From NCBI GenBank assembly GCA_002269645.1, contig NIVC01002709.1:124001-188000 (forward strand): a stretch of 64,000 bases of DNA, in the 5' to 3' direction. Made by a program: the position numbers and the translations under genes. Below the pieces are notes generated by a model that saw only the letters and a list, made by a program, of their open reading frames with translations, did no database searches and was not told the origin of the DNA. The stretch is from Macrostomum lignano. Its lineage: Eukaryota. Shown here piece by piece: positions 9,179 to 27,194 of the stretch (its first letter is position 1; each line of letters starts with the position of its first letter).

Positions 9179-9190
9179 CTGGCGACGAGG

Positions 9191-9916
9191 ATGGCGACGA
9201 TTCCAATCGAACCCCTGGAGACAGACGTGCCTGCCGAGGTCAGCAGATGGCTGCAGCGATTCGAGGCTATAGCCAAAGTCAAAAAGTGGAACGACGACGT
9301 GCTGAAGTACGCGTTTATAGCACAACTGGGGAAGAAGGCGTTCAACCTTCTGGCTGACGCTTCACTGCCAGCAAAGCCAGAGGAAAAGACCTTCGACCAG
9401 TTAAAGACGCTACTAACAAACGAAACGAAAGCATTGAAGTCGGGACTGGCCTATAGGTACGCTTTCCACCACATGAAGCAGGAAAGCGAAGAAGACACGT
9501 CGGCCTACGCTAGGAGACTTCGACAAGCCGCGGACAACTGTGAATTCACGGACCTAAACGACAAGTTGCGCGACCAGCTTGTGTTTGGCTTGTTCAACAA
9601 AGACATCGTGAGGAAACTGCTAACTGAAAAACTCGCAGACCTCACCTGGGAGAGGGTGACGTCCGTGGCAAGCGCATGCGAAGCCGTAGCGCGTGGTGAA
9701 AAACAGATGAGCAGCAGCGAAATCTTATCGGTCAAGAGGGCGGATCGACCGCGTTTGCCAGAGACTCGACAGAACGATCGCAAAGCGTGGCAGCCAACCG
9801 GGTACGGCAAGTGGAATCAACAGAGCCATGGCAACCAAGCAAAATGTTTCTGCTGTGGCAAGGATGGACACCGCAAGGACGTCTGCCAGCACCGTTCAAA
9901 GACCTGCCTGAATTGA
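9191..9916 (+). pseudogene. gag: Gypsy Gag (premature stop in the second zinc knuckle)
   Basis: WLQRFE...LRDQLVFGL...CFCCGKDGHRKDVC (CCHC knuckle), then CLN*GKTGHLKAVC. Confidence 0.9.
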
Positions 9917-10575
9917 GGAAAGACTGGCCATCTGAAAGCTGTGTGTAAGTCTAATACATCAAGACCTGCTCAACGGTCAAGACAGACGATCGAACCGCAG
10001 GAAGATTCTTCAGGACCTGTAGGTCTTGACAGCATTTTCTCCATAAATAGCAGCTGTGATGAGCCCAGCAGGCGCAGGATAACAAGGCTTCTGCTGGTCA
10101 ATGGGGCCAATCTTCGTATGATTATGGACACTGGATCCGTCTCATCATTTGTATCGCTAAAGATGTATCAAGGCCTTCCGTTGAAATCCAATTTAAGACC
10201 GACAGCCCGATGATTTACAGCATACCAAGGACATCCGGTGCGTGTTTTAGGAGAAGTTACTGTCAGAGTAGAGCGTGGCGGTGCAGTAGCGAACCTGCCA
10301 TTGTTTGTCGTGGACCACAGAGATGTGAAGCCCATATGTGGTTTGGACTGGATTGCAGAGCTGGAGCCGGAGCTTTATGTCGCCATAACCCAAGGTGGTA
10401 ATGCTAACACCACAGAAGAACGGCAATCAAGTCGCATGTCTCCAGTCGACACCGTGAAGGCGTCACTATCGATCAGGCCAGGCGCAAAACCTGTTTTCTG
10501 CAAGCCAAGACCGATTCCCTATGGTATTCAAGAAGACGTAATGAACGAGCTACGAAGAATGGAATCTGAAAGGAC
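9917..10575 (+). pseudogene. pol: Gypsy pol N-terminal part (aspartic protease, pre-RT), frameshifted and cut by the Polinton
   Basis: LLVNGANLRMIMDTGS (DTG protease motif), ICGLDWI, KPVFCKPRPIPY. It continues at 26398 as LEKVQSSEWATPIV. Confidence 0.9.
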
Positions 10576-10923
10576 AGTAGAAGGCATGAGGGGGCTTTTG
10601 GGACAAAATTTTTCACGTCCTCCATAATCCTATTAAATCCATCCATATTATCTCTGACAGAATCAGAAAAAAAAGGGGGGTCGCACTCGCTCACAAAACG
10701 TCCTCCATAATTCCATTAAATCCATCCATATTATCCCTGACAGAATCAGAGCATTATCCCTGACAGAATCAGAGCATAACAGGTGTCATATAATCCACTG
10801 ACATCCACCCATAGCATCTTCGAAACAATCAGAAAATAATCTGCATTCTTCTCCCCATGGGGCCCACATTCAATTCGCAACGTGCTACCAGATCCCAAAG
10901 ACTTTAAATCATCAGCGCAGGGT
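10576..10923 (+). repeat. Left TIR of Polinton (348 bp, starts AGTAG)
   Basis: Reverse complement of 26046-26391, differing by 2 substitutions and an A8 versus A6 run among the differences I noticed. Confidence 0.97.
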
Positions 10924-10960
10924 CCTTACCCTTTGAAAAAAAATTAAATTTTCTCTAAAA

Positions 10961-11197
10961 ATGTTTCCAGTTGTCTCTCCAGGTTCCTATTATACTCAGC
11001 CCAATCCATTGTACAAATCCAAGTACCAATGCAAACTAGAATGCAGCGAATACATGAGAAAATATTGGCCCGACGTTGATATCAATGTCCCTAATATTAA
11101 TCAAGCACTTAAATCTCACTGGTTTGAAAAACACGGAGTAGTCATTAACAATTTTGACAGCTATTATAACTTTGCTGAAGTTATAAGGCAGTTGTAG
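10961..11197 (+). CDS. Small hypothetical Polinton protein (78 aa)
   Basis: Open ORF with the AAAAATG start context shared by the other Polinton genes. No recognised motif. Confidence 0.5.
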   Translation: MFPVVSPGSYYTQPNPLYKSKYQCKLECSEYMRKYWPDVDINVPNINQALKSHWFEKHGVVINNFDSYYNFAEVIRQL

Positions 11198-11258
11198 TAG
11201 CCAACTACACGGTTGTACCTGGCGGCTTATATCGTAATTTTACAAGTCTGAAGACGAC

Positions 11259-12116
11259 TCACATTCTCTCAATAATAATTGTTAGCACAAACTCTTCCCC
11301 GTTAAAATCGACACCAACGCCATCCTCTGTTTCAAACTGCAGAATGATTTCATGTATCTCTCTATTACTCAGAATCACTCTTTTCACGGGGTTTGGCTTT
11401 TGCACAAGCATTTTGCCACCAGCAACAGAGTTTGAAATGTTAAAAAGTATGTTGCTTCGTTTGCCCTTGAATATCCAATCATGGCTCAGATTGCTGCGAA
11501 TTAATATATTCAAACCTTTGACAATGTCAGCGATATTTGGCGCCAAGTACATACCGGATATTAGCCGGGACACAGCAACAGTGCCAGGCGCCTGCAGCGG
11601 GCTTTGGTCTGTGGCGCCACCATAAACTCTCTTTTCAAATCCCAACTCGCGATACCAAGTGCCATCTTTAAACTCTACCTCTGCGTCCTTATGAACTTGC
11701 AAGACAACTCTCATGACAGTTAGATCATAAGTTAATCTAACAGGGAACAGTTTATTTTCTGGTTTGCTTTCATCCGGTATCTCAAAATGCTTTCGTTTAG
11801 TGAAGACGTTCTCCAAGAAGTAATTATAAGTATCCACGCTCTGTGTGCTGACAGGAAATATCACAACCTCTGTTGTAGTACGCTTCCATTTGTAATAAAA
11901 CTTGTTATTTTCCGCTGTCACATTGGGAACATTTGACCACCCAGTGAAATCATTGAGATAGACGTGGTAATTCGCCTCGGGATCCAAACGAAGTGGTTGC
12001 TCCAATTTTTGAATGAAGATTCCGTTTGACTCAGTAATGCGACCCGCTACAGTGATTGGAATGCTCTCCTTAGAGTGTGAAACAATGTTGTTCAGTCTTT
12101 CGGCTATGGCTTCCAT
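11259..12116 (-). CDS. Minor capsid protein (penton, single jelly-roll)
   Basis: Intact 285 aa adjacent to the MCP. The C-terminus IRSNL...SNILF...GKML...NPVK...EIILQFETEDGVGVDFNGE fits the Polinton penton pattern. Confidence 0.8.
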   Translation of the reverse strand: MEAIAERLNNIVSHSKESIPITVAGRITESNGIFIQKLEQPLRLDPEANYHVYLNDFTGWSNVPNVTAENNKFYYKWKRTTTEVVIFPVSTQSVDTYNYFLENVFTKRKHFEIPDESKPENKLFPVRLTYDLTVMRVVLQVHKDAEVEFKDGTWYRELGFEKRVYGGATDQSPLQAPGTVAVSRLISGMYLAPNIADIVKGLNILIRSNLSHDWIFKGKRSNILFNISNSVAGGKMLVQKPNPVKRVILSNREIHEIILQFETEDGVGVDFNGEEFVLTIIIERM

Positions 12117-12138
12117 TTTTTTATTGAAAAAAAATTAT

Positions 12139-13434
12139 TCAAACTTTACTAGACGAGTTATTGATCATATTGACCTTGATCTTCCTCTCAAATGCATAGA
12201 TAATAAACAGATCAACAGCCGTTGCGGCACCAAATTCTTTCCGCTCGATATTAGTCACAATGTTAACAGGGCTATTGTCTGTAGGCATTTGTCTAGCAGT
12301 CACATCAACACCAAATACTGGATATAGTTTTTTATACTGCAAGGTTGTCAAAACAATACCGTTATTCTCTTTGATAGCCAAGTCCGACAGTTCATTGTAA
12401 AACTTACTAATCTTGTTCTCCGAGAAATTCCCATTTTGTGGCAATGCAGGGTATAAATTGTCACTGATCTCATGCTGAATCGATCGAATGTTTCCATGTA
12501 GATATCTACCTACATTAGTTGTATTCCTCATAGTGACAATAATGTACCTTGGATTGCTACAGGAGCCTTCTTTAATGCAAATATTGTGTCTTGCGTCATT
12601 CCGCTCATCTCTGCACATATAAGCTGTATAAGCAACATCAATGTCTTTCTCAATCGCCTTCAAGTATTCAGCTTTGAGTGCAGTCTTGGGCTCAATAATT
12701 TCTAAGTACAGCTCCACGCTAGTTAGCTTAATCTCCATCGATGTATGATTGGCCCCCGACCAAATTCCTCTGTTCCGATCATCTCTAGTCAGTCTAAATG
12801 TGTAGCTAAAGTTGCTTGTCAACCGATTGAAACTATTACAGAAACCACTCATAAACCTCAAAGGTACAAAAATATCTACAGACCTAAACAGCGGATTCTT
12901 AGCAGCATCGTTCTCACCAGCAAGAGCATAGTTGTATCTCTCCTTTCTCTTTTTGTAACCAGGGTCATTCTCATCTCCTGTCTGTTCATTGGGGATGAAT
13001 CCAGCACCGCTCCCCATCTGAATAAAATCCGGGTTCTCAATCAAGCACTGGGTATCATAGACCACACCAAAGTTTGCTATTCTTTCCAACTCTGTACTTC
13101 CATTGGACACATTAAACTCTTTGAACATATAAGCCCAGAAATTACTGGTTAGTGCGACATCCGCATTGTGTAGATCATCATTAGCATGAGCGGCGTCTGC
13201 GCCTCCTTTAGTTTTGAATTGAAACGTCATATAGAAGCCGCTCCTTAGACTGTGGACACTGACCAAAGACGAACATCCATTGTATGTAAATGTCAGTGTT
13301 TGGCCAGGACCGAGATTAGTTTCATTCTGATTTTCCTGACTGGGAACTCTTACCTGAGTCGCTTTGATTGTGCTATCATCACTCAAAATAGGCTTGTTAA
13401 TTTTGTAGAAAACTGGTGTCAGTGGGTCGTTCAT
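12139..13434 (-). CDS. Major capsid protein (hexon-like double jelly-roll)
   Basis: Intact 431 aa. Size, position beside the penton, N-terminal D.S...NL..G.TLTF, NPRYIIV and LYPVFGVDV fit Polinton MCPs. Confidence 0.8.
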   Translation of the reverse strand: MNDPLTPVFYKINKPILSDDSTIKATQVRVPSQENQNETNLGPGQTLTFTYNGCSSLVSVHSLRSGFYMTFQFKTKGGADAAHANDDLHNADVALTSNFWAYMFKEFNVSNGSTELERIANFGVVYDTQCLIENPDFIQMGSGAGFIPNEQTGDENDPGYKKRKERYNYALAGENDAAKNPLFRSVDIFVPLRFMSGFCNSFNRLTSNFSYTFRLTRDDRNRGIWSGANHTSMEIKLTSVELYLEIIEPKTALKAEYLKAIEKDIDVAYTAYMCRDERNDARHNICIKEGSCSNPRYIIVTMRNTTNVGRYLHGNIRSIQHEISDNLYPALPQNGNFSENKISKFYNELSDLAIKENNGIVLTTLQYKKLYPVFGVDVTARQMPTDNSPVNIVTNIERKEFGAATAVDLFIIYAFERKIKVNMINNSSSKV

Positions 13435-13464
13435 TTTTTAACTAAAAATAAAATAAAATAAGAA

Positions 13465-14712
13465 ATGAAGCGAAAAAGTACACAGCAGATATCTGAACTA
13501 GAAAAGCTGGCGCAGGCAGAAAAGAGAGTTACCAAGCTAATAAATAAGGAGCAACAATCCTACAATGAGTTTGTCCAAGCAGCCACAGAGTTTCATAAAC
13601 CCGGGTATGGAGAAGCTAAGAAAAATATTGATCAGGTCAAAGAAACTATCGACGACATACAGGAAACCCAGGTGCAAAAGGCTTTGGGAAAAATTCCAGA
13701 AGCACCACAGATACAACCGCAACGACAGATACAACCGCAACCACAACAATCACAACCACAACAATCACAACCACAACAGCAACTAAAAGTGACAGATAAC
13801 ATTTTTGGACCAGTAGAGCGTGTCGAACATGATGGGAAATATGTATTTGGAATAAGTATGTGGAGAAAAAACATTTATAATGAACCAGTGGAATATTATA
13901 TCGACATAAATAAGGAAAAGATTTCTGTTGTCAAAGGCTCAGAAGCTATGAAAATTCCTTTCACAGACGCCTTACTGACTTTTATGACCAAGAACCAAGA
14001 GAGAATCTCGGACAAGCAGCTAAAGAACTACAGAGATCTAGTGACTTTTTCTCTTGCTAGAGATATAGAAATACTAAAGGTCCCAGAAGTTCTGAAACAC
14101 ATGTACAATGGCGGTGTCAACCTGACTAAATTCAAAAAGTACAAGCACTTTAAACAATGGTTTGGTTTGCCAGATCAGGGGGAAGTCATTGATCAGATGA
14201 AATATCTAGAACAACAGCAACAGCAACCACAACAACAACAACGACCGCCACAACAGCAGCAACATTTCACAGAAGAACAAGTACTCAGTCAACTCGAGCA
14301 GTTAGACCCTTTGAAAGTAGCTGAATATAAGAAACAAAACCCAACAGACTGGCAACGCTTAGAACAACACTCTCCAGATCGAATGAATAGAATCAATCAA
14401 AGAGTTTTCACACCTCAACAAAGACAGGCACCACATGACAGTTCCATCTCTGAAAGTGAGCAGTCTTTTGCATCACCTCCCCAGCAGCTACAAGCCCAAC
14501 CAACTCCACAACCCCAAGACCAACCGCCCTCAACTGGAAAAGGAATTTCTGAAATCTACAAGCGGTTAGCTGTTCTTCTAGGAGCAGCAAAGACCGGAAT
14601 GAAAGATGAGAATAGAAAAGAGTTCGTTCACATCCTCAATAAAATGCTTGAGAGAAAATACATCGATAAGAGGGCGAGAGAGCTTCTGCTTTCGCGGTTC
14701 AACAAAAAATAA
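13465..14712 (+). CDS. Gln-rich conserved Polinton core-like protein (PZ-like)
   Basis: Intact 415 aa. Central FG...DGKYVFG...LKNYRDLV block and C-terminal GKG...RLAVLLGAAKTG...EFVHILNKMLERKYI recall a conserved Polinton protein. Family name from memory, unverified. Confidence 0.6.
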   Translation: MKRKSTQQISELEKLAQAEKRVTKLINKEQQSYNEFVQAATEFHKPGYGEAKKNIDQVKETIDDIQETQVQKALGKIPEAPQIQPQRQIQPQPQQSQPQQSQPQQQLKVTDNIFGPVERVEHDGKYVFGISMWRKNIYNEPVEYYIDINKEKISVVKGSEAMKIPFTDALLTFMTKNQERISDKQLKNYRDLVTFSLARDIEILKVPEVLKHMYNGGVNLTKFKKYKHFKQWFGLPDQGEVIDQMKYLEQQQQQPQQQQRPPQQQQHFTEEQVLSQLEQLDPLKVAEYKKQNPTDWQRLEQHSPDRMNRINQRVFTPQQRQAPHDSSISESEQSFASPPQQLQAQPTPQPQDQPPSTGKGISEIYKRLAVLLGAAKTGMKDENRKEFVHILNKMLERKYIDKRARELLLSRFNKK

Positions 14713-14728
14713 TTTTTTTCAAGTAAAA

Positions 14729-15118
14729 ATGCCTCTTATTTTCGAAAAAGACATTGACAAATACTATGACAAAGAGGAACTTAATCTCATTAAACGCGGA
14801 TCTGGACTTTTCCCTGCAGGCCACTATCCAAGAAAAGAACGCTCAGGGAACGGTCTTGCCGATTTGATCGCTCAGGGGGCCAAGATTTTTAAGGTCATTG
14901 GAGAGAACAAAGAGAACATCAAGAACGTTGCCGAAGCGGCTGGCAGTGTAGCCACAGCAGCCAAAAAGATAAAGGATACTGTAACACCTAAACAAGAGAT
15001 TCAACCTCCACTGGCCCCGCTGGCCCCGCTGGCCCCAAATCCAGACAGTGTGGACCCTGCAGTCTATGAGAAGATGAGAGCAAGCATTAAAAAAGGAAGT
15101 GGTTTCAAATTTGACTAA
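14729..15118 (+). CDS. Small virion core/membrane-lytic-like protein (129 aa) with GxG motifs
   Basis: AAAAATG start at 14729. Contains KRGSG, RSGNG and KKGSG; GNG is followed by amphipathic LADLIAQGAKIFKVI. Confidence 0.6.
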   Translation: MPLIFEKDIDKYYDKEELNLIKRGSGLFPAGHYPRKERSGNGLADLIAQGAKIFKVIGENKENIKNVAEAAGSVATAAKKIKDTVTPKQEIQPPLAPLAPLAPNPDSVDPAVYEKMRASIKKGSGFKFD

Positions 15119-15142
15119 AGGTACTTTCCGAGGGTACAAGAC

Positions 15143-15312
15143 TAGTCCCGAAATGACACATCTAAGTCCCAAAATGACACATTTAAGTCCCAAAATGACA
15201 CATCTAAGTCCCAAAATGACACATCTAAGTCCCAAAATAACACATCCAAGTCCCAAAATGACACATCTAAGTCCCAAAACGACACATTCAAGTCCCGAAA
15301 TGACACATCTAA
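15143..15312 (+). repeat. 21-bp tandem array (AGTCCCAAAATGACACATCTA, about 8 copies) in Polinton intergenic region
   Basis: Direct inspection. Confidence 0.95.
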
Positions 15313-15346
15313 ATGATTTATTATTTAATTTTTTTTCATAGAAAAA

Positions 15347-16157
15347 ATGGACTTTTCAAACGACTTCAATCCTCACTGGACGCGTAATCAGATTAAGTTT
15401 TCTCATCACGAGTCAATTCCGAGTCATTCAGATGCATTGTTGTTGGTTCATCAGGTTCAGGTAAAACATTCAGAGTCTTTAACATGCTTCTTAGACCTGG
15501 CTTTATCGACTATGACACTCTGCACATCTACTCTCCCACACTGTATCAAGATGAGTATAGAATGTTGATTGCAGGGTTTCAAAACAAGCTGAACAAAGAG
15601 GACATTATTGCATGTTTTAATAACCAAATGAGCCTTCCCAGTAACCCAGAAATTGTAGCTGCTGAATATTCAAAGCACCTCAAAGACAATGAAAAATGGC
15701 AGAACATTAAAGTGTTCACCTATGGAGATCCACAGGCTGATCCAAAGACCAAACTTCTACCCCAACCAGATGAGCTAGAAAAGGGGAGAAAGCATTTGAT
15801 CGTCTTTGATGATTGTATGACAGGCCCACAGAAGCAGATAGAAAACTATTTTACAAGAGGACGACATAACAATTGTAATGTAATTTACATTGCACAGAAC
15901 TGGTTCGAGCTCCCGAACAAAACAATTCGTGGGAACTGCAATCTGATTCTCCTGTTTCCAACCATTCCACAGACAGGTTAAAAAGATTTTACAATGAGGT
16001 CATTGCGCCTGCCTATTTCATAAATCCAACAAAAAACTCAAGCAGAAAGATTTCACAAGAGGAATTCGTTAATCTTTGCTATGACAAGTGGAATCAGCCT
16101 TACCAGTTTGTGATTATCAGCAAAGAAAAAAGAACTGTAATTAAAATTTGCTATTAA
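15347..16157 (+). CDS. A32/FtsK-like genome-packaging ATPase (two frameshifts)
   Basis: A shifted frame gives FRCIVVGSSGSGKT (Walker A), then KHLIVFDD (Walker B), FTRGRHNNCNVIYIAQ, IRGNCN, and FVNLCYDKWNQPYQF after a second shift near 15975. Confidence 0.92.
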
Positions 16158-16160
16158 AAG

Positions 16161-16904
16161 ATGTCAATAAACTTTGCAGGTGAATCCATTTCTGGCAACA
16201 GCGCTCTTACATCAGCTCAAATATCCATCCTTGACAGGCGATATATCAACAGCGACGAAGAGATCCCAGAGATCAAACTGAATAAAAACAGACTGAAACA
16301 ATTAGAGCGCTCCATGCACCAGTTGCAAATAAACATGGAAGATCTCAGGCTTAAAGTAGCCAGGCAGAAGTTTGAAAGTGATAAGCTTTATGTACAGGTT
16401 GTACACGCAACTAATGAACTAAGGTCAGAAATAACTTCGGCAGTCTCGCAAATCAACGGTTTAAGAACAAATTTAGCATCGACAATTAATCTTCTGAGAA
16501 ACTCCATTGATAGGCGGATGCGCATTCTTGAAGAAGGAGTTTTCACAAACACAGCTAAAGTGAATAATTTAGAAGAGTTCATGAACCAGTCAACAGCGTT
16601 GCATGATAGAATTAAAGAAAACGTCGCAACCAACACAGGTAAAGTGAGGAATTTAGAAGAGTTCATGACTCAGTCAACAGCGTTGCATGATCAAATCAAA
16701 GTAAGAATTACTGCAAATAAAGTCTTTGTAGATTTAGTTTTTACCGAATGGCAGAAATCGGTGAGAAGAATCGGTCGTCTTGAACGCTTGCATAATCTCA
16801 AAAACATTGACGCTGAAGAGGCACCACAGACCACAAGGGAAACAAGTGATCCAACCGACTTGTTTGAGATCATGCGTAGAATGAAGCTCACAGATAATGA
16901 ATAG
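16161..16904 (+). CDS. Coiled-coil protein (247 aa) with a 27-aa internal repeat; possible fibre/spike
   Basis: Intact ORF with heptad-like pattern. The repeat is NTAKVNNLEEFMNQSTALHDRIK / NTGKVRNLEEFMTQSTALHDQIK. Confidence 0.6.
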   Translation: MSINFAGESISGNSALTSAQISILDRRYINSDEEIPEIKLNKNRLKQLERSMHQLQINMEDLRLKVARQKFESDKLYVQVVHATNELRSEITSAVSQINGLRTNLASTINLLRNSIDRRMRILEEGVFTNTAKVNNLEEFMNQSTALHDRIKENVATNTGKVRNLEEFMTQSTALHDQIKVRITANKVFVDLVFTEWQKSVRRIGRLERLHNLKNIDAEEAPQTTRETSDPTDLFEIMRRMKLTDNE

Positions 16905-17013
16905 GCAGATTCAGAGACCTGTTGCCGTCACTGCAGACGAAGCAATCAACCGTAAAACAAATCTAACCACCACCAACTAGTTGCCGATTTTTTTTTAAAA
17001 AATTCCCAAAAAA

Positions 17014-17670
17014 ATGGATGCTCAAAATTCTCTTTATGATCCGAACGCTCCCACAACACCTAGTGCACCTAGTGCACCCCAATATGAGCAACAAAAACTC
17101 TACCCCGTCATTACTTGTAACTCTCAACAGTTTCGACTAGTGGAGATTCAAAAAATGCGCGATGATCTTGAAAAAAATATTTTCCACAACACAAAGAAAA
17201 TTAAGCGCTATGACAACCACTGTAAATTTTTCGACTACAGCAATATGATTCTAGGATCTGTGTCTGTTCTATCTGGATCTGCTGCAGCTGTCTCAGTGTT
17301 GCCAGTCATCACAGCCCCAATCGCAATCCCACTCGGCTCTGTGGGTGCTGCATGTGGACTTATTTCAGCAATTACTGGAGCAGTAGCGCGAAACAGGCGA
17401 AAAAAACTAAAGCAGCTACAGGAGAAGCAAGTAAAAGAGAAAGGGGTGCACACATCAATCATAGGGTACATTTCAAGGGCAATCGAGGATAAGTTCATTT
17501 CAGAGGATGAGTTCAAAACCATTCAGGATCTTTATGAACAATCAATTCGAATGAACTTGAACATGGTCGGTACTGATGACATGAGTCAGCTGAGAAATGA
17601 ACTCGAGAAAGTTTTTCAACATTATGCGGAAAGAAGGACAACGAGAAGTACAACGAGAAATGCACAATGA
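17014..17670 (+). CDS. Hydrophobic-hairpin membrane protein (218 aa) with tandem PSAP motifs
   Basis: PTTPSAPSAP...LYPV, then FRLVEI, a ~45-aa hydrophobic stretch, a basic cluster and ISEDEF. Confidence 0.7.
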   Translation: MDAQNSLYDPNAPTTPSAPSAPQYEQQKLYPVITCNSQQFRLVEIQKMRDDLEKNIFHNTKKIKRYDNHCKFFDYSNMILGSVSVLSGSAAAVSVLPVITAPIAIPLGSVGAACGLISAITGAVARNRRKKLKQLQEKQVKEKGVHTSIIGYISRAIEDKFISEDEFKTIQDLYEQSIRMNLNMVGTDDMSQLRNELEKVFQHYAERRTTRSTTRNAQ

Positions 17671-17674
17671 ACCC

Positions 17675-18076
17675 CTATGAAACACAGGTACGAATAATTT
17701 CCTTGTAGGTCTTTCGTGTTTTGGTCATTGCATACAAAACAGTCATGCACAGCTCACCGCAAATATCACTGCTAAGACCTTGAAGAATAAAGTCTGAGTG
17801 GTAAATTTTTGTATTATTTTTTCCCTTCATATAATTTCTTAGCTCTTCTGGTACTGCCGTCCCATAGCTATCGAAGTAATAACACTTGTGCTTGCGATCG
17901 GGATCAATCACCCAGCAAACCCAATGAGATCCTGGCTTATCGGTGGTGTCAAAGTTCATGATGCCGCATTCCTTTCTTAGAGGAAAATCAGGCAGAGTGT
18001 CCCTCATAAATATTCCTCTAAAGTTTGGGATTTCCAGTTCGTTAGCCAAATCTTCAAGAAAGTTATTTGTCGTCAT
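17675..18076 (-). CDS. Adenain-like cysteine (maturation) protease
   Basis: Intact. Catalytic motifs GSHWV (His), YFDSYG (Asp), ILQ (oxyanion Gln) and ICGELC (Cys). Confidence 0.95.
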   Translation of the reverse strand: MTTNNFLEDLANELEIPNFRGIFMRDTLPDFPLRKECGIMNFDTTDKPGSHWVCWVIDPDRKHKCYYFDSYGTAVPEELRNYMKGKNNTKIYHSDFILQGLSSDICGELCMTVLYAMTKTRKTYKEIIRTCVS

Positions 18077-18181
18077 TTTTATGTCATTTTTTTATGAGGT
18101 TTATTAAACTTTCTCTCAAACCTAAACCCAATATCCACCTCCTAAACCTAACCTCCAGTGCCCGAATCTAACCTCCACCTC

Positions 18182-21100
18182 CTAAACCCAACCTCCTAAA
18201 CCTAATCTCCAGTGCCCGAACGGTAGACTGTTAATATTGTCATCAAAAATGAATCTCTTGTTATCTGCACCTGACAGTCCAATCTTCTTTTGCTGAATTG
18301 TGTGAATAAAATGGTTTTTAGATTGTAGCTTTGAGAACTCATGTGATGTCTTTTTGTTGCAATTCAAGGCGTCTCTGTATTCAGCTTCATTAATTTCCTT
18401 CCTAACCACACGTTTCGGAATTCCCTTTGATTTTTTAATTGGGTCTGACGACTCACATTTTACAAAATAGGACTTTGCTCTCAACCCAATGAATTCAGTG
18501 ATTATGTCACCAGCAATCTCGTCCTTCATTTTCCCAATCACTTTCTTGTTAGTGGCGTCAAACACTTGATCACCATTCAGCGTCCTGCAAGATTCATCAT
18601 ACTCAGACAAGTCAAACAACTCTTTTTGCTGCAGCATGTCCTGATAAATGTCTTCTGTTTGAATGTCCATAATAAAACTGTCTGTGTCAGTGTACAAGAG
18701 TTTCATTTTATCCTTGTACTGCTGCTTCATGCCATAGAAGAACTGGTACATCAACGTTTTGATTCGTCGAGAACAGTGACACCTGTATAGATCGGCTTGC
18801 GCAGCGTCACCTTGGTTTTGTAAAATATGATCACACCTAAGTAGCTATTAAAGATATGGAGTTCTTTGAATGTTGGCTTTGACATATTTGCCTGAATAAC
18901 AGCAGGCTCTGATGAGGTAACAAGTTTCAGGTTTGTTCTTTTCCGCTCATTCTCAAGAGTCTTGCCATAGACAGAGTTGTTGGCTAACTTAAAGAGGTTC
19001 TTGTCAAAGTCGTTGGTTGCTTTGGTCCTAAACTGGGTGTTCTTATCAATGTAGGGTTTCATCCACGCTTCCTCTGTAAATGTAAGAGCCCGGTGAACTT
19101 TGGTGACCCTGCAACCAAGTGAGATAAAATATTGAAGCAGTTTGTAATGGATTTTGTAACGTGTCTTGTTGTTTAGATTCTGTGTTAGTTTCTCTGTATG
19201 TTCTTTTTCTGTTCCTGACAGGTGCCAAGTTCCATTATTATCATTGGGAGTTTCGATTATTTTCGGGCACTTGATGTTCTCTGGGAAGGGTGGAAAGTCA
19301 GAGAAATAGTCGTGAAGCTCTGGTGGAATGTAAACATCAACCTCATAAATGGCAGCCAATGAAAAGTCCCATTTGAATTCTGATGAGGGTAGCCATCGAA
19401 AATCTCTAACTGGAAGATCTTGACTCATCGCCCACCCGTAGAGATTATTAGCGTCCAAGTAAGTAATGTAGTTTGAGGGCTGCTCCTTATTGTAAGATTC
19501 AATGTAGGGATTGTTTGCTTTTGCATACCTGTTAACGCAAATTGAGATCCCCCCTCGCTTTGACGATTCGACAAAATTGTACATGTCAATGTCTGTAAGA
19601 AGTTCAATGTACCAATCTGGATCTTGATCCCATTTCATTTTAAGCAAAGATTCCCAGCTAGTGGCAGGCAGAGACACATAATGTGCTGGATCGAGGCCAT
19701 ATGCTGTGTACCAGGTGTCTCTGAAGGTTTCAAACACATCAGCCAGCAGAAACACATCTGTGTAGAGGTAAAGCAGGTGATACTGGAAGAAGTTTTGACA
19801 ATTAAAGTAATTATAGACATGCTTTGCGTGCTCATAGTCTTTGTCAGAGATTCCAGAGTCTGTTAGCTTTGAAAAGAACTTTTCTTGTGGTGGTAAACCA
19901 TCTTCAAATACGTGATACCCAGAAATATTTTCATAGGGGTAGAAGCCTTTGGTTCTCAGGAGTTTAAATGATTCATCACTGTTGTTAATTTTACTTGCAA
20001 ACATCTTTGTATATGTACATTGTTCATCTTTTAGATTCTTGCTTAGTTCGTCTAGACTGGCAGCTAGAAATTGATATGAATCCTTCAGTCTTATTTTACC
20101 TGTAATTGAATTATCCTGTTTAATATCAACACACTTAAACTTCTCCTTGTTCTCTGCGATGCAATCAAGGTGTATGTCTGGAATCATGCCGATTTTTTCA
20201 ACTATTAAATGCATGTCATAATTCTTTGCGTTGTGACAAAATATCGTTAGATCATGAATGTTCGATTTTAGCTTTAGATTACAGGTGTTATGCGCTGCAC
20301 CTCTAAATTTCCCAGTATAGTGGCAGTGGTCTCTAACGGTCGGGTTTTTAATATTAGTGCAAGTTAACTGTTTCCTGCAGATGTGGCAATGAGTTGCTAA
20401 TAAGAAATTGCTTTCATCCTCCTCAGTCATCATTATTGGAACAGGTTGAAGGGTGCTAATTACTCTTTGCAACTCTAACATTCTGGCAATAAACTGCTCC
20501 ACACACTGTCTCCAAAGAAATAATTAGACTCAACAAGTCCTTTTGTATTAATAAAGGCATATGCTACTGAATTGGGGACATGTTTTTTGAGTTTCTGGCA
20601 TGATTGAGCATTCGAAATCAGCATATACAACAAATGGGAGCTTCTCCATCTTGTGATAGTTCTTAAACCGGAGATACTTCTCTTCAGCTGAAGGAAGAGA
20701 GCAGTTTGTTGGGTGATCCTCGCATGATAATTCATGCTCTGTTAGTTTTTCAAAGCGTTCAGGTCCACTGTAATGCTTAAGGCACAAGCGGCAGATGGCA
20801 ACAGCCTCGTGATGATTATTCAACTGCTTGTGAATGAGTCTTGAAAGATCTTTAATCCAAACATAGTGAGCCTCCTCTAGTAAATTACCAATCACTAGAA
20901 GATCCACTTCAGTCCGCCTTTTCCCCTCAGGATCTAAAACGTCTTTGCTACATCTGACCGGTTGAACTTTCTCAGTTTTTTCACTCCACTCAAAGACTGT
21001 GATTCTAATTTTGTTATTAAACACTTCTTCTAGCTTTGGGATTGAGAGATCGCCAAGCCTCCTTTGTCAAACCTGATTCCCTTCTTTTCGCATTCGATGA

Positions 21101-21995
21101 GATAGTAGTTGAAATAATTTTGATAATTTGAGGTTCTTTCGGGGTGGTGAGGGACACTATCATAAAGAAGTGCAGAAAGAACTGCCCATAGAGCACAGCA
21201 ATTGTCTTTATTTTTAACATTTATGCAAGCTTTTTTGCCGGCTAGCTTGTGTGGGAGCTCTATATAAGAGGAGGCTTTAAGTGGGTCATATTTCATGACC
21301 ATGACAGTCGCTCTTTGAATCCCTCCACGACCCATCCGGAACCTCTGGATGTAAACGCTTCAATTTTCTTATTGACATCTTGAAGGAAAGGATCCAGTGT
21401 GTCTGTGGGGTGAATGGCTTTGCCTTTGTTGTCATGTAATACTCGAGATGCTCAGTGGGTTTTGCAGGCATATAAAACGCAATCTTGAATGATATCTGTA
21501 GTTTAAAGGTCTTGCGTGTTTTGAGTGTGTGATCAACAACTGATTGGATGCTGTCTTTATAGTCGTAGATGTTTGCGGTGGTATCCTTAATTGGGATTGT
21601 GTACTCTATGTAATGTTCTGTAAACTTCCTCTGTGCAAAATTAATCTCTTCAATGGCAAGCTCCGACTCTTTTAAATGGATTAATTGCTCTAATTTCTCT
21701 TGTTCCTGCTTATTTTGTGGGTACTTTGCTTTTTCACCAGTGAGAGTTTCGTATTTGTTAACTAAGTTGCGACTCCTCTCTTGGTGTTCCTTTGCAGGAT
21801 TTTGTATAGGCGCATACTGGTTGGATTCTAATTGATTGATGATTTCCAACTGTTTTTCATAGCTTCCCAGGTGACCAGGGTCGGTGTTAAACTTTTGTTT
21901 ACATGCTTCTCTTAGTAAATTACTTTTGTCTTGAAATGAGACGCCTTTTGAAAATATTTGTTGACTAAATCTTTTGCTGGATTAGCTTTTGGCAT
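18182..21995 (-). CDS. polB: Protein-primed family B DNA polymerase (several frameshifts)
   Basis: Exonuclease motifs YADFEC, HNAKNYD, LKDSY, YLYTDVFLL. Polymerase motifs YLDANNLYGWAMS, KLANNSVYGK, LYTDTDS, GKMKDE, KSKG. Start MPKANP at 21995. Confidence 0.97.
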
Positions 21996-22229
21996 TTTTT
22001 CTCTAAAATAAAAAAAATTTTGAGGGTGACCACCCTGATAGAAAAGTTGAACTGTTTCTACATCCTATAAGTAGCGTTAGGTTTATGAAGCTGGATAAAG
22101 TGGGGTTTTAAACCTCATCACATGCGCATTATTGTAAACCCAGCATTGTGCAGTGTCATGATGCTTTGACAATGTCAGACTTGCTTACAGAATTTTCATG
22201 CTCACAATCATCATCATCACAATCACGCA

Positions 22230-22571
22230 GGGCAGCCCTCTCCTGCCTTAATTGTTATACCTTTGTCTCTTGCAATCTTTTGCAATTCTAGCTGGTGGGC
22301 TCTATCATTACCAGCTTTAACAGCAGTTGCTACACCTCCAGCTACACCACCTGCGGCACTTACAGCGCCTGCAATGATGGATAAGAGCTGCTAATGGTAG
22401 GATTCCTCCTGACTTTTCATCTGTGATGCTGTGTCTTTGCTCATTACACTGAACTATTTGCTGCGTGGGATCGATTTTTACTTTGACACCTTTAATTGAT
22501 ATAAGACCTGGTTTCTTTGATTCAATGATTTTATTGAGTTTATTGATGGTTCTGGTTTCAATCTTTGTCAT
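22230..22571 (-). CDS. Adenovirus pX/mu-like core protein (frameshifted)
   Basis: After one frameshift it reads KSGG|ILPLAALI(P)IIAGAVSAAGGVAGGVATAVKAG, similar to the adenoviral pX tail GG|ILPLLIPLIAAAIGA. Confidence 0.7.
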
Positions 22572-23610
22572 TTTTTATTTTAATATTTTAATTAATTTCG
22601 TGTCAGCTGGTATCACTAGGAGTTCAGCTCTAGTGAATGACCGTGGGGGATTTAGGGTTAAAGGCTGAGATAAAAAGTAATAGTCACCGGAGTCGGAGGT
22701 AAAATGTCTGTCTATTTTATGTACATCAAGGCTGAAGTATGGATCTGTAGCTCTTCTTTTGGTGTCTTCTCTAGCTCTCCAGGTAGATATAAAAAGCGTA
22801 GAAACTCAGAGTTTGTCAGTATGTATGGTGATTCAACTCCTGGAAGCTTAGGGTAGTTCGAGGTGTGTTTTGTGTTGTGTGTGTTGTGTGGGGTTGTAGT
22901 GTTGTTGTCTGTTCTATGAGATGCCTAAGTTCGACAGTGTCTTTTTTAATTGCATGGGATGGTTTCAATCCAGTCATACGTGTGACTTCATTGTTCAGTT
23001 GCTCTATAACAGTGGGAGCCGGTCTGTCCATTTTGAATAGTACTGACCACTTTTTAGTTTCAGCTCTCAGCTGTCTGCTTAGTGAATAGCCTCTTGGCTA
23101 GAGTTAGATTGAATCTCTCAAAGCGCTTGGTCTCTGTGCAAGTTTGTTCTGCCATAGCGAATTTTTGCGTCATACTTATGTAGAAGTGATTTCACTGCAC
23201 CCATGAATTCTTTACCGGGTCCGTCATAAAGATTTCAGGGTAACTAAGGGTGAGTTTTTATAAATATCTTGGAGGGCGGCTGCAACTGCTTCTGACTTCT
23301 TCGTCTTAAGCGGTCTCGCTTCCTTATATCTGGAAGCAACGTCTGTAATTGTAAGAGCATACTTGTAGCCTGAGTCGTTGGGGAGAAACAAAAAGATCTG
23401 CTTGGTGCGCCTCATTAGGTTTATAGATGTAAAGTGAGGTCTTGTAAATTTTACTGGTGGGAAATAGACTTGAAAGAGAGCCTGCTTAGAGAGCCATTTT
23501 TCTACTGTAGCTTTTGGTCCTTACTTAGTTCTGCGAGTTGGTGACTGCATTTTTTTCTACAAAGAATCCTTTGTCGCTGTAGTAGAGTTTTTAAGTTTCT
23601 GATCTGTCAT
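22558..23610 (-). CDS. int: Retroviral-type (rve) integrase of the Polinton, many frameshifts
   Basis: PNEAHQAD, LTITDVASRYKEARPL, FNLTLAKRLF, LNNEVTRMTGLKP, KRRATDPYFSL, RSFTRAELLVIPAD. Confidence 0.9.
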
Positions 23611-23640
23611 TTATTTAAAAAGAAAATTTTAAATAAAATA

Positions 23641-24095
23641 ATGCAACGCTCTGGTGGTAAATAGATTCACATGGACTGATAGAAAAGCTTCCTCATCCAA
23701 ACAAAGGCTGGACACTTCCCGGCTATAAATATTGCGGGCCTTTGAATCCACTTGAAATACAGCTAGATAAAAACAATAATCCACATCCTGGGCATGAGCC
23801 TGTGAACGAGCTAGACTCTGTCTGCATGTGGCACGACGTTAAATATAGAGATTTTCCTGAGGAGAAGAATCGCTGGGACAAAGAAATGCTCAGGAGACTC
23901 GACAATATAGGGGCTTCAAGCGGATTTCGCGAGTCTATTGCTCGGAAATTAGTTAAAGCTGTTATTTTTGGTAAGACAAAGTTGGGGTTGGGGGTCGGCG
24001 GCTGTTTGAGAGAAGGGGTGGGCTTTGTGTTGCAGACGCCAAGTAAAAAATTAGGAAGACTGCTGAAAGAGCTGGGGGTTGAGAGAGCAGAATGA
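23641..24095 (+). CDS. Parvovirus-VP1-type phospholipase A2 (1-nt deletion near start)
   Basis: MQRSGGK, then after the shift ...WTLPGYKYCGPLNP (Ca-binding-loop-like) ...NELDSVCMWHDVKYRD (HDxxY catalytic) ...WDKEML...KLGLG. Confidence 0.88.
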
Positions 24096-24349
24096 TTCAA
24101 GCAAGAAAATTCAAGAGAAACTTTTTAAGAAAATAACAGCAAAAGAAAAATAAATGGATGACATGATATACTTTTGAGCAGCAGTTAGTTTCCCGAATTT
24201 GGTACTCACACAGGCTGCCACTCGAAGGCCGCTGCTACAGCCCGCGCATCTTTAAAAGAAGAAAAAAAGTAATTTGATATTAGCAATCTCCTTACTTTCT
24301 TTTTCCTTTTAAAGATGGAAAAAATGTTAATCTTGTCTGAAACATGAAA

Positions 24350-24490
24350 GAGAAGATTTAGAGAAGAAGAGAAGAGAAGAGAAGAAGAGAAGAGAAGAGA
24401 GGAGGAGAAGAAGAAGAAGAAGAAGAAGAAGAAGAAGATTTAGAGAAGATGAGAATTATCTTCTTATTATTAAGAAGATAAAGAAAAGAA
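24350..24490 (+). repeat. Purine-rich (GAAGA)/(GAA)n tract
   Basis: Direct inspection. Confidence 0.9.
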
Positions 24491-24528
24491 AAGTTATATT
24501 TATTTACCATTTTTACTATTTTTATTTA

Positions 24529-25296
24529 CTATTCTTTTTTTATTTGAATAACACCCATGCTCCAATAGGTTTTATATTTATTCGAACACATTAACATGTC
24601 TTCAATATCATTTTTTAAGGTGTAAAGTTCCTCAAATGTTATATTTAGCTTAAAAAAACGAGGATAATCATGTAATGTTTTACTAAGAGACAACATTTTT
24701 CTAATAGTGCTTTTAGCATATGTTATCTCATGTCGTTGCAAAAACTCCAAAACCTGATCATCACACCTTTTACATTTAACAGTTTCTTCAGGATGTTCTA
24801 TTCTATGTTTCGCTGCGTTGTGGTTAAGCCATACACCACAGATGTATGTGGCAATGAGCATACGATTATTACATCTTTTTAAACTTGTGACTGCCGTCTG
24901 TAGTTGTTCTTCTACAGATAACGGCATATTCGTATCAACAATAGAATAGGGGTGAATAAATTCATCGACCCCTTCAAATTCAAATACTTTTGCGCAAAGA
25001 TATTGATGAAGCGTCTCACCAGTTGGCCGTAGTTTTTGCTTCTTTACTTTTACTTTCTTTCTTGCTGGTTGATCTTGATCCTCATCTACATCCATGCGCT
25101 CTTCATTTAATTTTTTTGATCGATCTTCTAAATTGCCACAACTAGGTACTAAGGGGCAATCTAATGTAACTTTTAAATGAATTAAATCATCTTCAGATAA
25201 GAGTAGTTCGTGTTTATTGTTATCTTTTGCTAACTGATTTAGCTGTAAAATTTTAGAGAAGAGAGATAGATCTGGTGTGACAGACAAGTCAGACAT
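24529..25296 (-). CDS. Hypothetical Polinton accessory protein (255 aa) with basic NLS-like cluster
   Basis: Intact ORF with AAAAATG start. An acidic patch is followed by RKKVKVKKQK and a helical C-terminal half. Confidence 0.75.
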   Translation of the reverse strand: MSDLSVTPDLSLFSKILQLNQLAKDNNKHELLLSEDDLIHLKVTLDCPLVPSCGNLEDRSKKLNEERMDVDEDQDQPARKKVKVKKQKLRPTGETLHQYLCAKVFEFEGVDEFIHPYSIVDTNMPLSVEEQLQTAVTSLKRCNNRMLIATYICGVWLNHNAAKHRIEHPEETVKCKRCDDQVLEFLQRHEITYAKSTIRKMLSLSKTLHDYPRFFKLNITFEELYTLKNDIEDMLMCSNKYKTYWSMGVIQIKKE

Positions 25297-25719
25297 TTTT
25301 AACCGAGTAACTCTTCAAAAGTAGTTGTATAAATAAGCTTTCTTCCTTACCCGACAGACTTTGGGGGGGGGATGTCCGCCTGATAGCGGCGAGACGACTT
25401 GGCTTTGGGGATAAGGGGAGAGAATTGAGTAGACTGAGAAGAGCTGTGGGACGAGGGACAATGGAGGATCAGGGGTATGGTTTTGGTTGGCCATACGTAT
25501 GCCATACGTAGCATACACGTGCTGCGGGATTGACTGTAGGTAGAGAAGTGGAAAGAGAGAGAACTTGCTATGTAGAAATAAATGCTCGCGGTGAGGAGAA
25601 GCTTGTGCATAGGAAGAGAGGTTCTCTCTGTATACGGGGTCTGCGTACTCTGAGTTAGTGAGGGCATGAAGCTTCTGCATGGGGGAAGAGATATTTGCTC
25701 TGTACATGCTCGGCGGCGG

Positions 25720-25822
25720 AACATTTGTTGGGCTGAGGAACAAATGTTCGGCTGAGGAACATTTGTTCGGCTGAGGAACATTTGTTCGGCTGAGGAACAT
25801 TTGTTCGGCTGAGGAACATTTG
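25720..25822. repeat. 19-bp tandem array with internal palindrome (GAACA-TT-TGTTC)
   Basis: About 5 copies of ATTTGTTCGGCTGAGGAAC. Confidence 0.9.
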
Positions 25823-26045
25823 TAGCTGGCTCTGTAGCTGGTGCCCTAGAGGGTAGTTTTACATTTTCCCTTAGATAAATAGTTGCAAGCGTTGATTTTA
25901 GATGTAAGAGCATTGTGTATGAATAGATCTTAGTAGACATTAACAAGCTTGGCAGAACTGTTCAGCGTGAGTTACTATAATAAGAACCTCGGGAGACAAC
26001 TGGAAGCATTTTTATTGAGAATTTAGATTTTTTCGGAGGATGAGC

Positions 26046-26391
26046 ACCCTGCGCTGATGATTTAAAGTCTTTGGGATCTGGTAGCACGTTGCGAATTGAA
26101 TGTGGGCCCCATGGGGAGAAGAATGCAGATTATTTTCTGATTGTTTCGAAGATGCTATGGGTGGATGTCAGTGGATTATATGACACCTGTTATGCTCTGA
26201 TTCTGTCAGGGATAATGCTCTGATTCTGTCAGGGATAATATGGATGGATTTAATGGAATTATGGAGGACGTTTTGTGAGCGAGTGCGACCCCCCTTTTTT
26301 CTGATTCTGTCAGGGATAATATGGATGGATTTAATGGGATTATGGAGGACGTGAAAAATTTTGTCCCAAAAGCCCCCTCATGCCTTCTACT
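26046..26391 (-). repeat. Right TIR of Polinton (346 bp, ends CTACT)
   Basis: Reverse complement of 10576-10923, followed by the TSD AAGGAC. Confidence 0.97.
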
Positions 26392-26397
26392 AAGGAC

Positions 26398-27133
26398 AGT
26401 TGGAGAAAGTGCAATCGAGCGAATGGGCCACGCCTATAGTGTGTGTCAGAAAGCAATCTGGAAGTATCAAGATTTGTGGCGACTATAAGATAACACTGAA
26501 CCCAGTCTTGGAAGACATGGTAGCGACAACGCCATCGATAGATGAAGTGATGTCCAGATTGGGTCGAGCCCGGAAATTCTCCACGCTAGATCTCACAAAC
26601 GCATACTTGCAGGTACCAGTCGGCGCCGAGACAAGTCAGATGCAAACTTGGAGCACACCCTTTGGCCTGTTTCGTCCAACCTCACTGGCTTTTGGGGTAA
26701 AACAAGCACTCGCTATCTTCCAGTCATATATGGATAAACTCCTGCTAAACCTCGACGGCGTGATATCCTACCAGGACGATATCCTCATCTGGGGCGAAAG
26801 TCAGACTGATCATGACGAAAGGCTCAACACAGTAATGAAGATCCTGGAAAACAATGGACTTCGCATAAATGCTGACAAGTCTGTACTAAACAAGTCGTCA
26901 ATATGATTTTTGGGCTACGAGATCAGTGCAAATGGAATTCGCCCACTAAAGGAGGAAGTGGAAGCCATTGCCGGATTAAAAGAGCAAAGAGACCTCACAC
27001 AACTACAGGCGTTCTTGGGAATGGTCGATTTCTATGGACGATGCATTCCTAACTTGGCTACGTTGAAAGATTCATTGACCAATCTAACCAGGTCAGGTGT
27101 GCGATGGACCTGGGGAAGGTAAGAACAGAAGGC
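26398..27133 (+). pseudogene. pol: Gypsy reverse transcriptase (continuation of pol), truncated after RT
   Basis: WATPIVCVRK...ICGDYK...FSTLDLTNAYLQ...TPFGLF...YQDDILI...GYEIS...FLGMVDFYGR...WTWG. Confidence 0.95.
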
Positions 27134-27194
27134 AAACATCTAGCTTCTTTGTTCCTTACGGAGACTTCCAGTCGTACGACTTCTTTGGGCCACG

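What the first reader, a model, noticed from the sequence alone, without database searches (positions are those of the whole stretch)
10576..26391. Complete, apparently young Polinton/adintovirus with a full virion gene set
Seen: near-identical ~347-bp TIRs, a 6-bp TSD and about 14 genes. Established: AG...CT termini, 6-bp TSD, pPolB, rve integrase, A32 ATPase, adenain and double/single jelly-roll capsids define Polintons/Mavericks. Inference: intact capsid, penton and protease plus entry-type proteins (PLA2, pVI- and pX-like) suggest a lineage able to form virions, possibly an undescribed family in this host.
Basis: partly seen in the sequence, partly recalled or inferred. Interest (0 to 1): 0.8.

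Follow-up and report, generated by a model that had tools for sequence, protein, structure and literature searches.

The report
Young Polinton with frameshifted core genes
This is a recently inserted virus-like jumping element of a well-known animal family; it carries a distinctive set of capsid genes, but its copying and integration genes read as broken in this sequence, more likely from sequencing error than from age.

Summary
A real 15,816-bp Polinton/Maverick (Alpha-PolB adintovirus type) at 10576-26391. It has 348/346-bp TIRs (2 substitutions, one 2-bp indel) and a perfect 6-bp TSD, and it interrupts a Gypsy pol gene.

The major capsid protein models as a double jelly-roll and the minor one as a penton. 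Both, and the adenain protease, are open frames.

"Complete/intact" does not hold as written. pPolB, integrase, ATPase, PLA2 and the pX-like gene are split by 18-21 frame changes. These come with no in-frame stop in the core genes and cluster in 3.2 kb, whereas older elements in the same window carry stops. Local assembly error is the likelier cause (about 0.6); real damage is not excluded.

The pVI label rests on motifs only. The capsid belongs to a small clade of unnamed relatives (11 at 41-76% identity, the rest under 30%). An older relic of a related Polinton flanks the Gypsy, so this lineage inserted here twice.

Verdict: new member of a known kind. Host not identified; virions not shown.

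The parts
10570..10575 (+). left 6-bp target-site duplication (AAGGAC)
10576..10923 (+). left TIR, 348 bp, with internal 53-bp and 23-bp repeats; degenerate extension to about 10994
10961..11197 (+). 78-aa ORF starting in the TIR extension; function unassigned
   Evidence: only a sub-threshold hit; has the element's A-rich start context
11259..12116 (-). minor capsid protein (penton), 285 aa, open
   Evidence: model pLDDT 64; Foldseek top hit mavirus penton E 1.6e-5; VIA Z 9.8, rmsd 12.4, 202 aligned to mavirus penton, and Z 9.8, rmsd 2.7, 110 aligned to a PBCV-1 capsid chain 6ncl_a6; 12 relatives at 52-63%
12139..13434 (-). major capsid protein, double jelly-roll, 431 aa, open
   Evidence: PF21738 above cut-off; low-confidence model pLDDT 52; Foldseek top hits Sputnik, mavirus, PBCV-1 MCPs E 1e-11 to 1e-9; VIA Z 10.4, rmsd 6.2, 310 aligned to faustovirus MCP
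13465..14712 (+). 415-aa Gln/Pro-rich ORF, open; possible core protein (inference)
   Evidence: no family match
14729..15118 (+). 129-aa ORF with three GxG protease-site-like motifs and an amphipathic helix; 'pVI-like' by motif only
   Evidence: helix at 96th percentile of the element's 18-mers; no PDB match; Atlas nearest clusters unnamed
15144..15312 (+). 21-bp tandem repeat, 8 copies, intergenic
15347..16157 (+). A32/FtsK packaging ATPase; broken into 3 frames (breaks near 15.4 and 16.0 kb); Walker A, Walker B and RGRH motifs present in the middle piece
   Evidence: motif names recalled
16161..16904 (+). 247-aa coiled-coil ORF, open; fibre/cement candidate (inference)
   Evidence: only sub-threshold coiled-coil hits
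17014..17670 (+). 218-aa membrane protein, SLATT-like, with PSAP x2 and LYP motifs at the N-terminus; open
   Evidence: hydrophobic stretch 78-125 and motifs; SLATT_1 E 0.031, below cut-off; Atlas unnamed clusters 0.94
17675..18076 (-). adenain-type cysteine protease, 133 aa, open; His/Asp/Gln/Cys motif residues present
   Evidence: PF00770 E 3e-4; best PDB hit adenovirus proteinase E 0.006; catalytic assignment partly recalled
18182..21995 (-). protein-primed PolB, Alpha class, with an Endonuclease-VII-like insert; broken by 7 frame changes (near 18.76, 20.5, 20.6, 21.0, 21.3, 21.4 and 21.9-22.0 kb); all Exo I-III and Pol A-C motifs present across the pieces
22223..22571 (-). stand-alone pX-like gene; one frame change near 22.4 kb
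   Evidence: Adeno_PX E 0.016, below cut-off
22575..23610 (-). rve integrase; about 10 frame changes; the three catalytic motifs lie in different frames
   Evidence: 3 breaks homolog-guided, the rest from recalled motifs
23641..24095 (+). parvovirus-type PLA2; Ca-loop and His-Asp motifs present; one frame change at the 5' end; no pX domain detected on it
   Evidence: PF08398 E 9e-14; 38% to a Stylophora polinton-like protein
24529..25296 (-). 255-aa ORF, open; unassigned, regulatory candidate (inference)
   Evidence: no family match
25347..25940 (-). 197-aa ORF spanning a 19-bp tandem repeat; doubtful, lacks the usual start context; an upstream in-frame ATG at 26009 is cut off by a stop at 25962-25964
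26046..26391 (-). right TIR, 346 bp
26392..26397 (+). right 6-bp TSD (AAGGAC)
8940..10569 (+). target element, left part: Gypsy 5' LTR (8940-9178), gag and protease, 2 in-frame stops
26398..27140 (+). target element, right part: Gypsy reverse transcriptase, 2 in-frame stops
8289..8919 (-). older related Polinton relic: adenain remnant and PolB 3' end, about 71% nt / 58% aa to the young element in PolB
33729..33907 (-). continuation of the older Polinton relic beyond the Gypsy

Best explanation
A recently integrated copy of an Alpha-PolB Polinton (Eupolintoviridae, formerly Adintoviridae, type) from a lineage that is still or was lately mobile in an animal host. SHOWN: integration with a 6-bp TSD into a decayed Gypsy; near-identical TIRs; the full gene set; open capsid, penton and protease genes. 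INFERRED from known Polinton biology: the linear TIR-bounded DNA is copied by protein-primed PolB and inserted by the rve integrase; it can be packaged by the A32 ATPase into a double-jelly-roll capsid with penton vertices; adenain matures small core proteins at GxG/GG sites; PLA2 and an amphipathic peptide aid entry. INFERRED here: most of the 18-21 frame changes in pPolB, integrase, ATPase, PLA2 and pX are errors of this sequence (a poorly polished or low-coverage repeat segment), not decay. Identity as a Polinton is near certain (about 0.98); the confidence given is for the whole statement including the error reading.
For: TIR divergence is only 2 substitutions in 346 bp and the TSD is perfect. 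Homolog-guided frameshift-aware alignments needed 5 frame changes and 0 stops in pPolB and 3 and 0 in the integrase core. All successive pieces overlap, so no stop must be read through. Older elements in the window carry stops: Gypsy 4 stops, 0 frame changes in 2.1 kb; Polinton relic 2-3 stops, 0-2 frame changes. With LINE frame changes added to the controls, 7 stops:6 shifts against 1:18 gives Fisher p 0.003. 15 of 18 breaks fall in 33% of testable bases (permutation p 3.5e-4). All catalytic motifs checked survive. Start codons of broken genes keep the element's A-rich context (10 of 15 starts against 38 of 587 ATGs). That long-read assemblies keep homopolymer errors in repeats is stated in PMC8812927 (abstract start in listing).
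Against: No reads were available, and the sequencing technology is unknown. The 18.5-kb duplication nearby has only 3 one-base indels in 9.5 kb, so the window is not error-ridden overall. Homopolymer run spectra do not differ between broken and clean zones. The direction of shifts is not significantly biased (15 against 6, p 0.08). The window's MCP and penton have more private changes at otherwise invariant columns than any relative (7.8% against 2.2-5.9%; 10.2% against 0-5.8%), which could be mild decay. TIR divergence alone predicts about 5 real frameshifts at the window's non-triplet indel rate. 10-13 of the breaks rest on recalled motifs, and chaining overlapping pieces tends to avoid stops by construction; on the 8 homolog-guided breaks alone the expected-stop test is marginal under the lenient indel rate (p 0.056). 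One possible in-frame stop lies at 25962-25964. A LINE at 3.3-5.2 kb also shows about 4 frame changes with 2 stops in a weak alignment.
Confidence: 0.6

Rival explanations
1. The breaks are real: this is a defective copy, damaged by slippage-type indels before or soon after insertion and mobilised in trans by an autonomous relative because its TIRs are intact.
For: Five genes are broken as written. Few one-base indels elsewhere in the window. Excess private amino-acid changes in MCP and penton. Most Maverick copies in vertebrate genomes are degraded (PMC8097293 passages).
Against: Needs a process giving about 20 frameshifts with 0-1 stops, clustered in 3.2 kb, within the time of 2 TIR substitutions; older elements here show stops about as often as shifts.
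Confidence: 0.33
2. An old, passively decayed fossil or a capsid module domesticated by the host, with the replication module lost.
For: Capsid, penton, protease and four neighbouring ORFs are open while replication genes are broken.
Against: TIRs are 99% identical with a perfect TSD. The ATPase, PLA2 and pX of the virion module are broken too. It sits inside nested transposons, with no large deletions, unlike the true relic at 8289-8919.
Confidence: 0.05
3. The frame changes are programmed (ribosomal frameshifting, splicing or editing) and the genes are functional as written.
For: Catalytic motifs are conserved across the pieces.
Against: About 20 events in both directions. Full-length single-ORF PolB relatives are abundant. 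Intact Mavericks are intronless (PMC8097293).
Confidence: 0.02

Closest known systems
Alpha adintoviruses, e.g. Corynactis coral adintovirus (family Eupolintoviridae, formerly Adintoviridae; order Amphintovirales, formerly Orthopolintovirales; PMC12451622)
   Same: pfam03175-class PolB, 39-40% identical to Corynactis adintovirus PolB, which is listed among Alpha maps in Fig. S2 of PMC8502044; rve integrase, A32/FtsK ATPase, adenain, DJR hexon, penton, PLA2, SLATT-like gene, ITRs.
   Different: PLA2 and pX are separate genes on opposite strands either side of the integrase, not the fused PLA2X described for Alpha virion modules. PolB lies on a long branch (1.2 changes per site, at most 47% identity among 41 relatives tested). 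No named protein was among the capsid hits.
Vertebrate Mavericks (PMC8097293)
   Same: Size (12.7-24.6 kb there, 15.8 kb here), TIR length range, 6-bp TSD, intronless core genes.
   Different: End motif AGTAGA rather than (AGT)2 or (AG)3; different gene order; PZ/PW/PM orthology not tested; fails that paper's 'intact' criterion as written.
Unnamed database proteins P0001-P0011 (MCP) and P0284-P0295 (penton)
   Same: 41-76% (MCP) and 52-63% (penton) identity; the MCP forms one clade with 10 of them (SH-aLRT 100, quick tree).
   Different: All come from short contigs (at most 8.5 kb) without informative names; their hosts and genome context stayed unchecked.

Membership tests
Polinton/Maverick | Terminal inverted repeats of hundreds of bp with AG...CT ends | tested here: met
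   348/346 bp, AGTAGA...TCTACT
Polinton/Maverick | 6-bp target-site duplication | tested here: met
   AAGGAC on both sides
Polinton/Maverick | [quoted passage not shown] | tested here: met
   PF03175 E 4e-17; 5855 of 8000 scored candidates at E<=1e-50; gene is frameshifted
Polinton/Maverick | Retrovirus-like rve integrase gene | tested here: met
   rve E 0.002 on one piece, below cut-off; frameshift-aware score 126 against 30-33 for 3 shuffles with a Stylophora integrase; gene is frameshifted
Polinton/Maverick | [quoted passage not shown] | tested here: met
   PF21738 above cut-off; fold searches on a low-confidence model
Polinton/Maverick | Single-jelly-roll penton | tested here: met
   Mavirus, adenovirus and Sputnik pentons top both searches; moderate Z (8-10), high rmsd over both domains
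Polinton/Maverick | A32/FtsK packaging ATPase and adenain protease | tested here: met
   PF04665 above cut-off, gene frameshifted; PF00770 E 3e-4 and PDB adenain E 0.006, gene open
'Intact' Maverick (criterion of PMC8097293) | All core genes as uninterrupted ORFs | tested here: not met
   pPolB, integrase and ATPase are split; may be sequence error
Alpha adintovirus (PMC8502044) | pfam03175-class PolB | tested here: met
Alpha adintovirus (PMC8502044) | N-terminal OTU domain (and terminal protein) on PolB | tested here: inconclusive
   Cys and His motifs at the expected places and homology to relatives across the region; no OTU profile hit; terminal protein domain not tested
Alpha (Mayetiola-class) virion module | Fused PLA2X gene | tested here: not met
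   PLA2 (23641-24095 +) and pX-like (22223-22571 -) are separate genes
Alpha or Beta virion module | Hexon and penton cluster with Mayetiola or Terrapene references | not tested
   No named reference capsids were among the hits; the supplement's sequence files were cut from the held copy
Adenovirus pVI / adintovirus Cupiennin | Homology of the 129-aa ORF | tested here: inconclusive
   Motifs only; no match in PDB, NCBIfam or named Atlas clusters
Eupolintoviridae as bona fide viruses | Virion production and free linear genome | not testable with these tools
   Needs reads or experiments
A catalogued Repbase/Dfam Polinton family | Near-identity to a deposited consensus | not testable with these tools

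The most novel reading that the evidence does not exclude
A distinct, unnamed capsid lineage of Alpha-PolB polintoviruses (MCP clade under 30% identical to all other hits) with its own entry and exit kit: separate PLA2 and pX genes, a protease-matured amphipathic protein, and a two-helix membrane protein bearing PSAP/LYP late-domain-like motifs. It has colonised this invertebrate host repeatedly, is intact in the real genome, and still makes particles. That would give a tractable system for showing virions of an integrated animal Polinton.
Probability: 0.15. Interest if true: 0.72.

Novelty: new member of a known kind. Interest (0 to 1): 0.36.

Why it matters
Polintons with full virion gene sets are common in animal genomes, so the class itself is no surprise. 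PMC8097293 (2021, abstract passage) states that Maverick particles had not been observed; my one search for later animal work listed protist and algal systems in its top 15 and does not settle the point. A young copy of a divergent capsid lineage is a candidate for that test if the host is culturable and the breaks are errors. The locus also records two invasions by related Polintons, separated by a Gypsy insertion. It is a caution too: 'intact' calls from assemblies need read support.

Tried and rejected
Names and sources of the closest capsid relatives could not be looked up (one search did not complete), so their hosts stay unknown.

Host identity: no tool result identifies it. The repeat content and a LINE recalled a free-living flatworm; this is memory, untested. 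Paper searches on that guess gave only a passing report of Orthopolintovirales insertions in Rhabditophora (10.1101/2025.04.19.649669, passages).

pVI homology: PDB phmmer gave 4 unrelated hits at E 0.4-10. PDB searches for PLA2 and ATPase gave nothing useful.

Homopolymer-spectrum and shift-direction tests did not support the error reading.

No second copy or solo TIR of the young element in the window.

No clear Harbinger TIRs found.

The careful MCP tree did not finish; the quick tree on 60 of 100 full-length hits was used. The PolB search covered only proteins of 1009-2880 aa, so closer short relatives were not examined. The PolB tree used 41 of 120 listed hits and only the open 590-aa piece.

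Supplementary Table S1 and the sequence files of PMC8502044 were not visible and bear on the Alpha/Beta capsid placement.
Full report
OBSERVATION. The element spans 10576-26391 (15,816 bp, 39.8% GC against 46.7% for the rest of the window). Its arms align over 348/346 bp with 2 substitutions and one 2-bp indel, then decay to about 84% for another 70 bp. It starts AGTAGA and ends TCTACT, between perfect AAGGAC duplications. Size, TIR length and 6-bp TSD match the description of Mavericks in PMC8097293 (passages); the end motif differs slightly from the (AGT)2 and (AG)3 types listed there. The window holds no N.

GENES. Fifteen gene units cover 86% of the element. Pfam gave DJR capsid, pPolB, A32 ATPase and parvovirus-type PLA2 above cut-off, and adenain, rve and adenovirus pX below cut-off. 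The MCP model is low-confidence (pLDDT 52, 12 sequences), yet its best matches are DJR capsids: Sputnik, mavirus and PBCV-1 by Foldseek, faustovirus at Z 10.4 over 310 residues, rmsd 6.2. The 285-aa neighbour (pLDDT 64) matches the mavirus penton first in both searches, with adenovirus and Sputnik pentons behind it. The 129-aa ORF has three GxG motifs and an amphipathic helix but no match to pVI, so 'pVI-like' is a motif-level guess. 10.1101/341131 (passages) gives the adenain motifs and notes that pVI did not cluster with adintovirus core proteins.

Five genes are split over reading frames. A profile of 30 full-length PolB relatives aligned to 18212-21403 with 5 frame changes and no stop. A coral integrase aligned to 22942-23370 with 3 frame changes and no stop (score 126; 3 shuffles 30-33). 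Adding breaks inferred from adjacent pieces with recalled motifs gives 18 to 21: pPolB 7, integrase 10, ATPase 2, PLA2 1, pX-like 1. As written, this copy cannot make a polymerase, integrase or packaging ATPase. Capsid, penton and protease are open.

ERROR OR DECAY. For error: the older Gypsy around the element reads in one frame on each side, with 4 stops and no frame change in 2.1 kb. An older Polinton relic shows 3 stops and no shift by tblastn, or 2 stops and 2 shifts by the frameshift-aware aligner. The young element shows no stop in its core genes and one possible stop in an unassigned ORF. Counting LINE frame changes among the controls, 7:6 against 1:18 gives p 0.003. Breaks cluster: 15 of 18 lie in 2,949 of 8,979 testable bases (permutation p 3.5e-4). 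Against error: only 3 one-base indels in 9.5 kb of a nearby duplication; no homopolymer-spectrum difference; no significant direction bias; more private amino-acid changes in MCP and penton than in any relative; about 5 real frameshifts are expected from TIR age under a lenient indel rate; and over half the breaks are motif-guided. I put error at about 0.6 and a truly defective copy at about 0.33. Only reads can decide.

CONTEXT. The element interrupts the pol gene of a Gypsy (5' LTR 8940-9178, 5-bp TSD GTTCT at 8935-8939 and 33728-33732). That Gypsy itself interrupts an older Polinton relic at 8289-8919 and 33729-33907, about 71% identical in DNA and 58-60% in protein to the young PolB 3' end, with the same adenain-PolB order. 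A Harbinger transposase (32287-33471) and a LINE (28780-32477) also lie within the Gypsy. Related Polintons thus inserted at this locus twice, at different times. The host is a eukaryote with typical animal transposons and animal-type PolB relatives; no call identified it.

HOW IT WORKS. Shown: a TIR-bounded unit integrated with a 6-bp duplication. Inferred from PMC8502044 (parts 1-2 of 6 and passages) and PMC11071308 (passages): PolB with a terminal-protein and vOTU N-terminus copies the linear DNA; the rve integrase inserts it; A32 ATPase, DJR capsid, penton and adenain build and mature a particle; PLA2 aids membrane entry. All six polymerase and exonuclease motifs survive across the pieces. 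The terminal-protein domain was not tested.

COMPARISON. PolB is of the pfam03175 (Alpha) class, 39-40% identical to Corynactis coral adintovirus PolB, listed in the Alpha panel of Fig. S2 of PMC8502044 (text of the figure only). The family is now Eupolintoviridae (PMC12451622, passages). PolB sits on a long branch among 41 relatives, at most 47% identical (FastTree); shorter relatives were not searched. Its class in the pPolB1/pPolB2 scheme of PMC10748475 (passages) was not tested. The MCP search gave 14 hits among 3,501 candidates: 11 at 41-76% and 3 at 22-25%, none with an informative name. Of 100 full-length hits were at least 40% identical, 88 were under 30% and 2 had no 200-aa alignment; the window's MCP and those 10 form one clade (SH-aLRT 100, stem 0.84; quick tree on 60 of the 100). 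All 14 MCP-search hits rescanned still match PF21738. The penton search gave 12 hits among 588 candidates, at 52-63%, all unnamed. PLA2 and pX are separate genes, unlike the fused PLA2X of Alpha virion modules.

VERDICT. A genuine young Polinton of a known family with a divergent, unnamed capsid sub-lineage and a variant gene layout. It works like, and meets the tested defining features of, Polintons and Alpha-PolB adintoviruses; it fails the 'intact' criterion as written. Novelty: new member of a known kind. Interest 0.36; about 0.72 if reads show it intact and particles are found (probability about 0.15). Other papers seen: 10.1101/2025.04.19.649669 and 10.1101/2025.02.07.637071 (passages), PMC11296320 (abstract and outline), PMC8812927 (listing only).

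Noticed in passing
window 8289-8919 and 33729-33907 (-): Older relic of a related Polinton (adenain remnant plus PolB 3' end), split by the Gypsy; nesting order is old Polinton, then Gypsy, then young Polinton.
   Followed up: yes
window 8940-33727: Gypsy element with 5-bp TSD; the 5' LTR is whole, only about 26 bp of the 3' LTR remain next to the Harbinger. Its two pol halves are out of frame across the Polinton insertion once the TSD is allowed for.
   Followed up: partly
window about 27150-33700: PIF/Harbinger element (DDE_Tnp_4 transposase 32287-33471; a Myb-like partner near 27200-27915 is recalled, not tested) with a LINE at 28780-32477 inside it.
   Followed up: partly
element start codons, 10961-25296: Most genes have a T-rich then A-rich leader; AAA directly precedes 10 of 15 starts against 38 of 587 ATGs. 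Four leaders end a T-run with AG, like splice or trans-splice acceptors.
   Followed up: partly
window 23610 / 23641: Integrase and PLA2 start codons diverge only 30 bp apart; MCP and the 415-aa ORF do the same (13434 / 13465).
   Followed up: no
window 17014-17670: SLATT-like membrane protein with two PSAP and one LYP motif, resembling ESCRT late domains (motif names recalled); conservation in relatives unchecked.
   Followed up: partly
window about 18570-18690 of the PolB exonuclease region is not meant; motif lies near 20270-20390 (-): Endonuclease-VII-like (PF02945) Cys/His insert inside PolB (E 7e-5), shared by many relatives; relation to the HNH insert of nematode pPolB2 untested.
   Followed up: no
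window 25962-26009 (-) and 10961-11197 (+): The degenerate TIR extension carries paralogous ORF starts at both ends; the right one stops after 15 codons, in frame with the 197-aa ORF.
   Followed up: partly
window 36437-45459 and 55067-64000: Direct duplication at 18.5-kb spacing, 96.4% identical; segmental duplication or uncollapsed haplotypes.
   Followed up: partly
window 43600-51000, 54160-54800, 62300-62900: Long simple-repeat arrays (8-, 17-, 23-, 29-, 32-bp units).
   Followed up: no
window 2152-2550 and 35210-35755: Two short inverted-repeat elements (56-bp and 206-bp arms), probably MITE-like.
   Followed up: no
window 3300-5200 (-) and 52078-53554 (-): A decayed LINE and a second Gypsy-type pol fragment.
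   Followed up: partly
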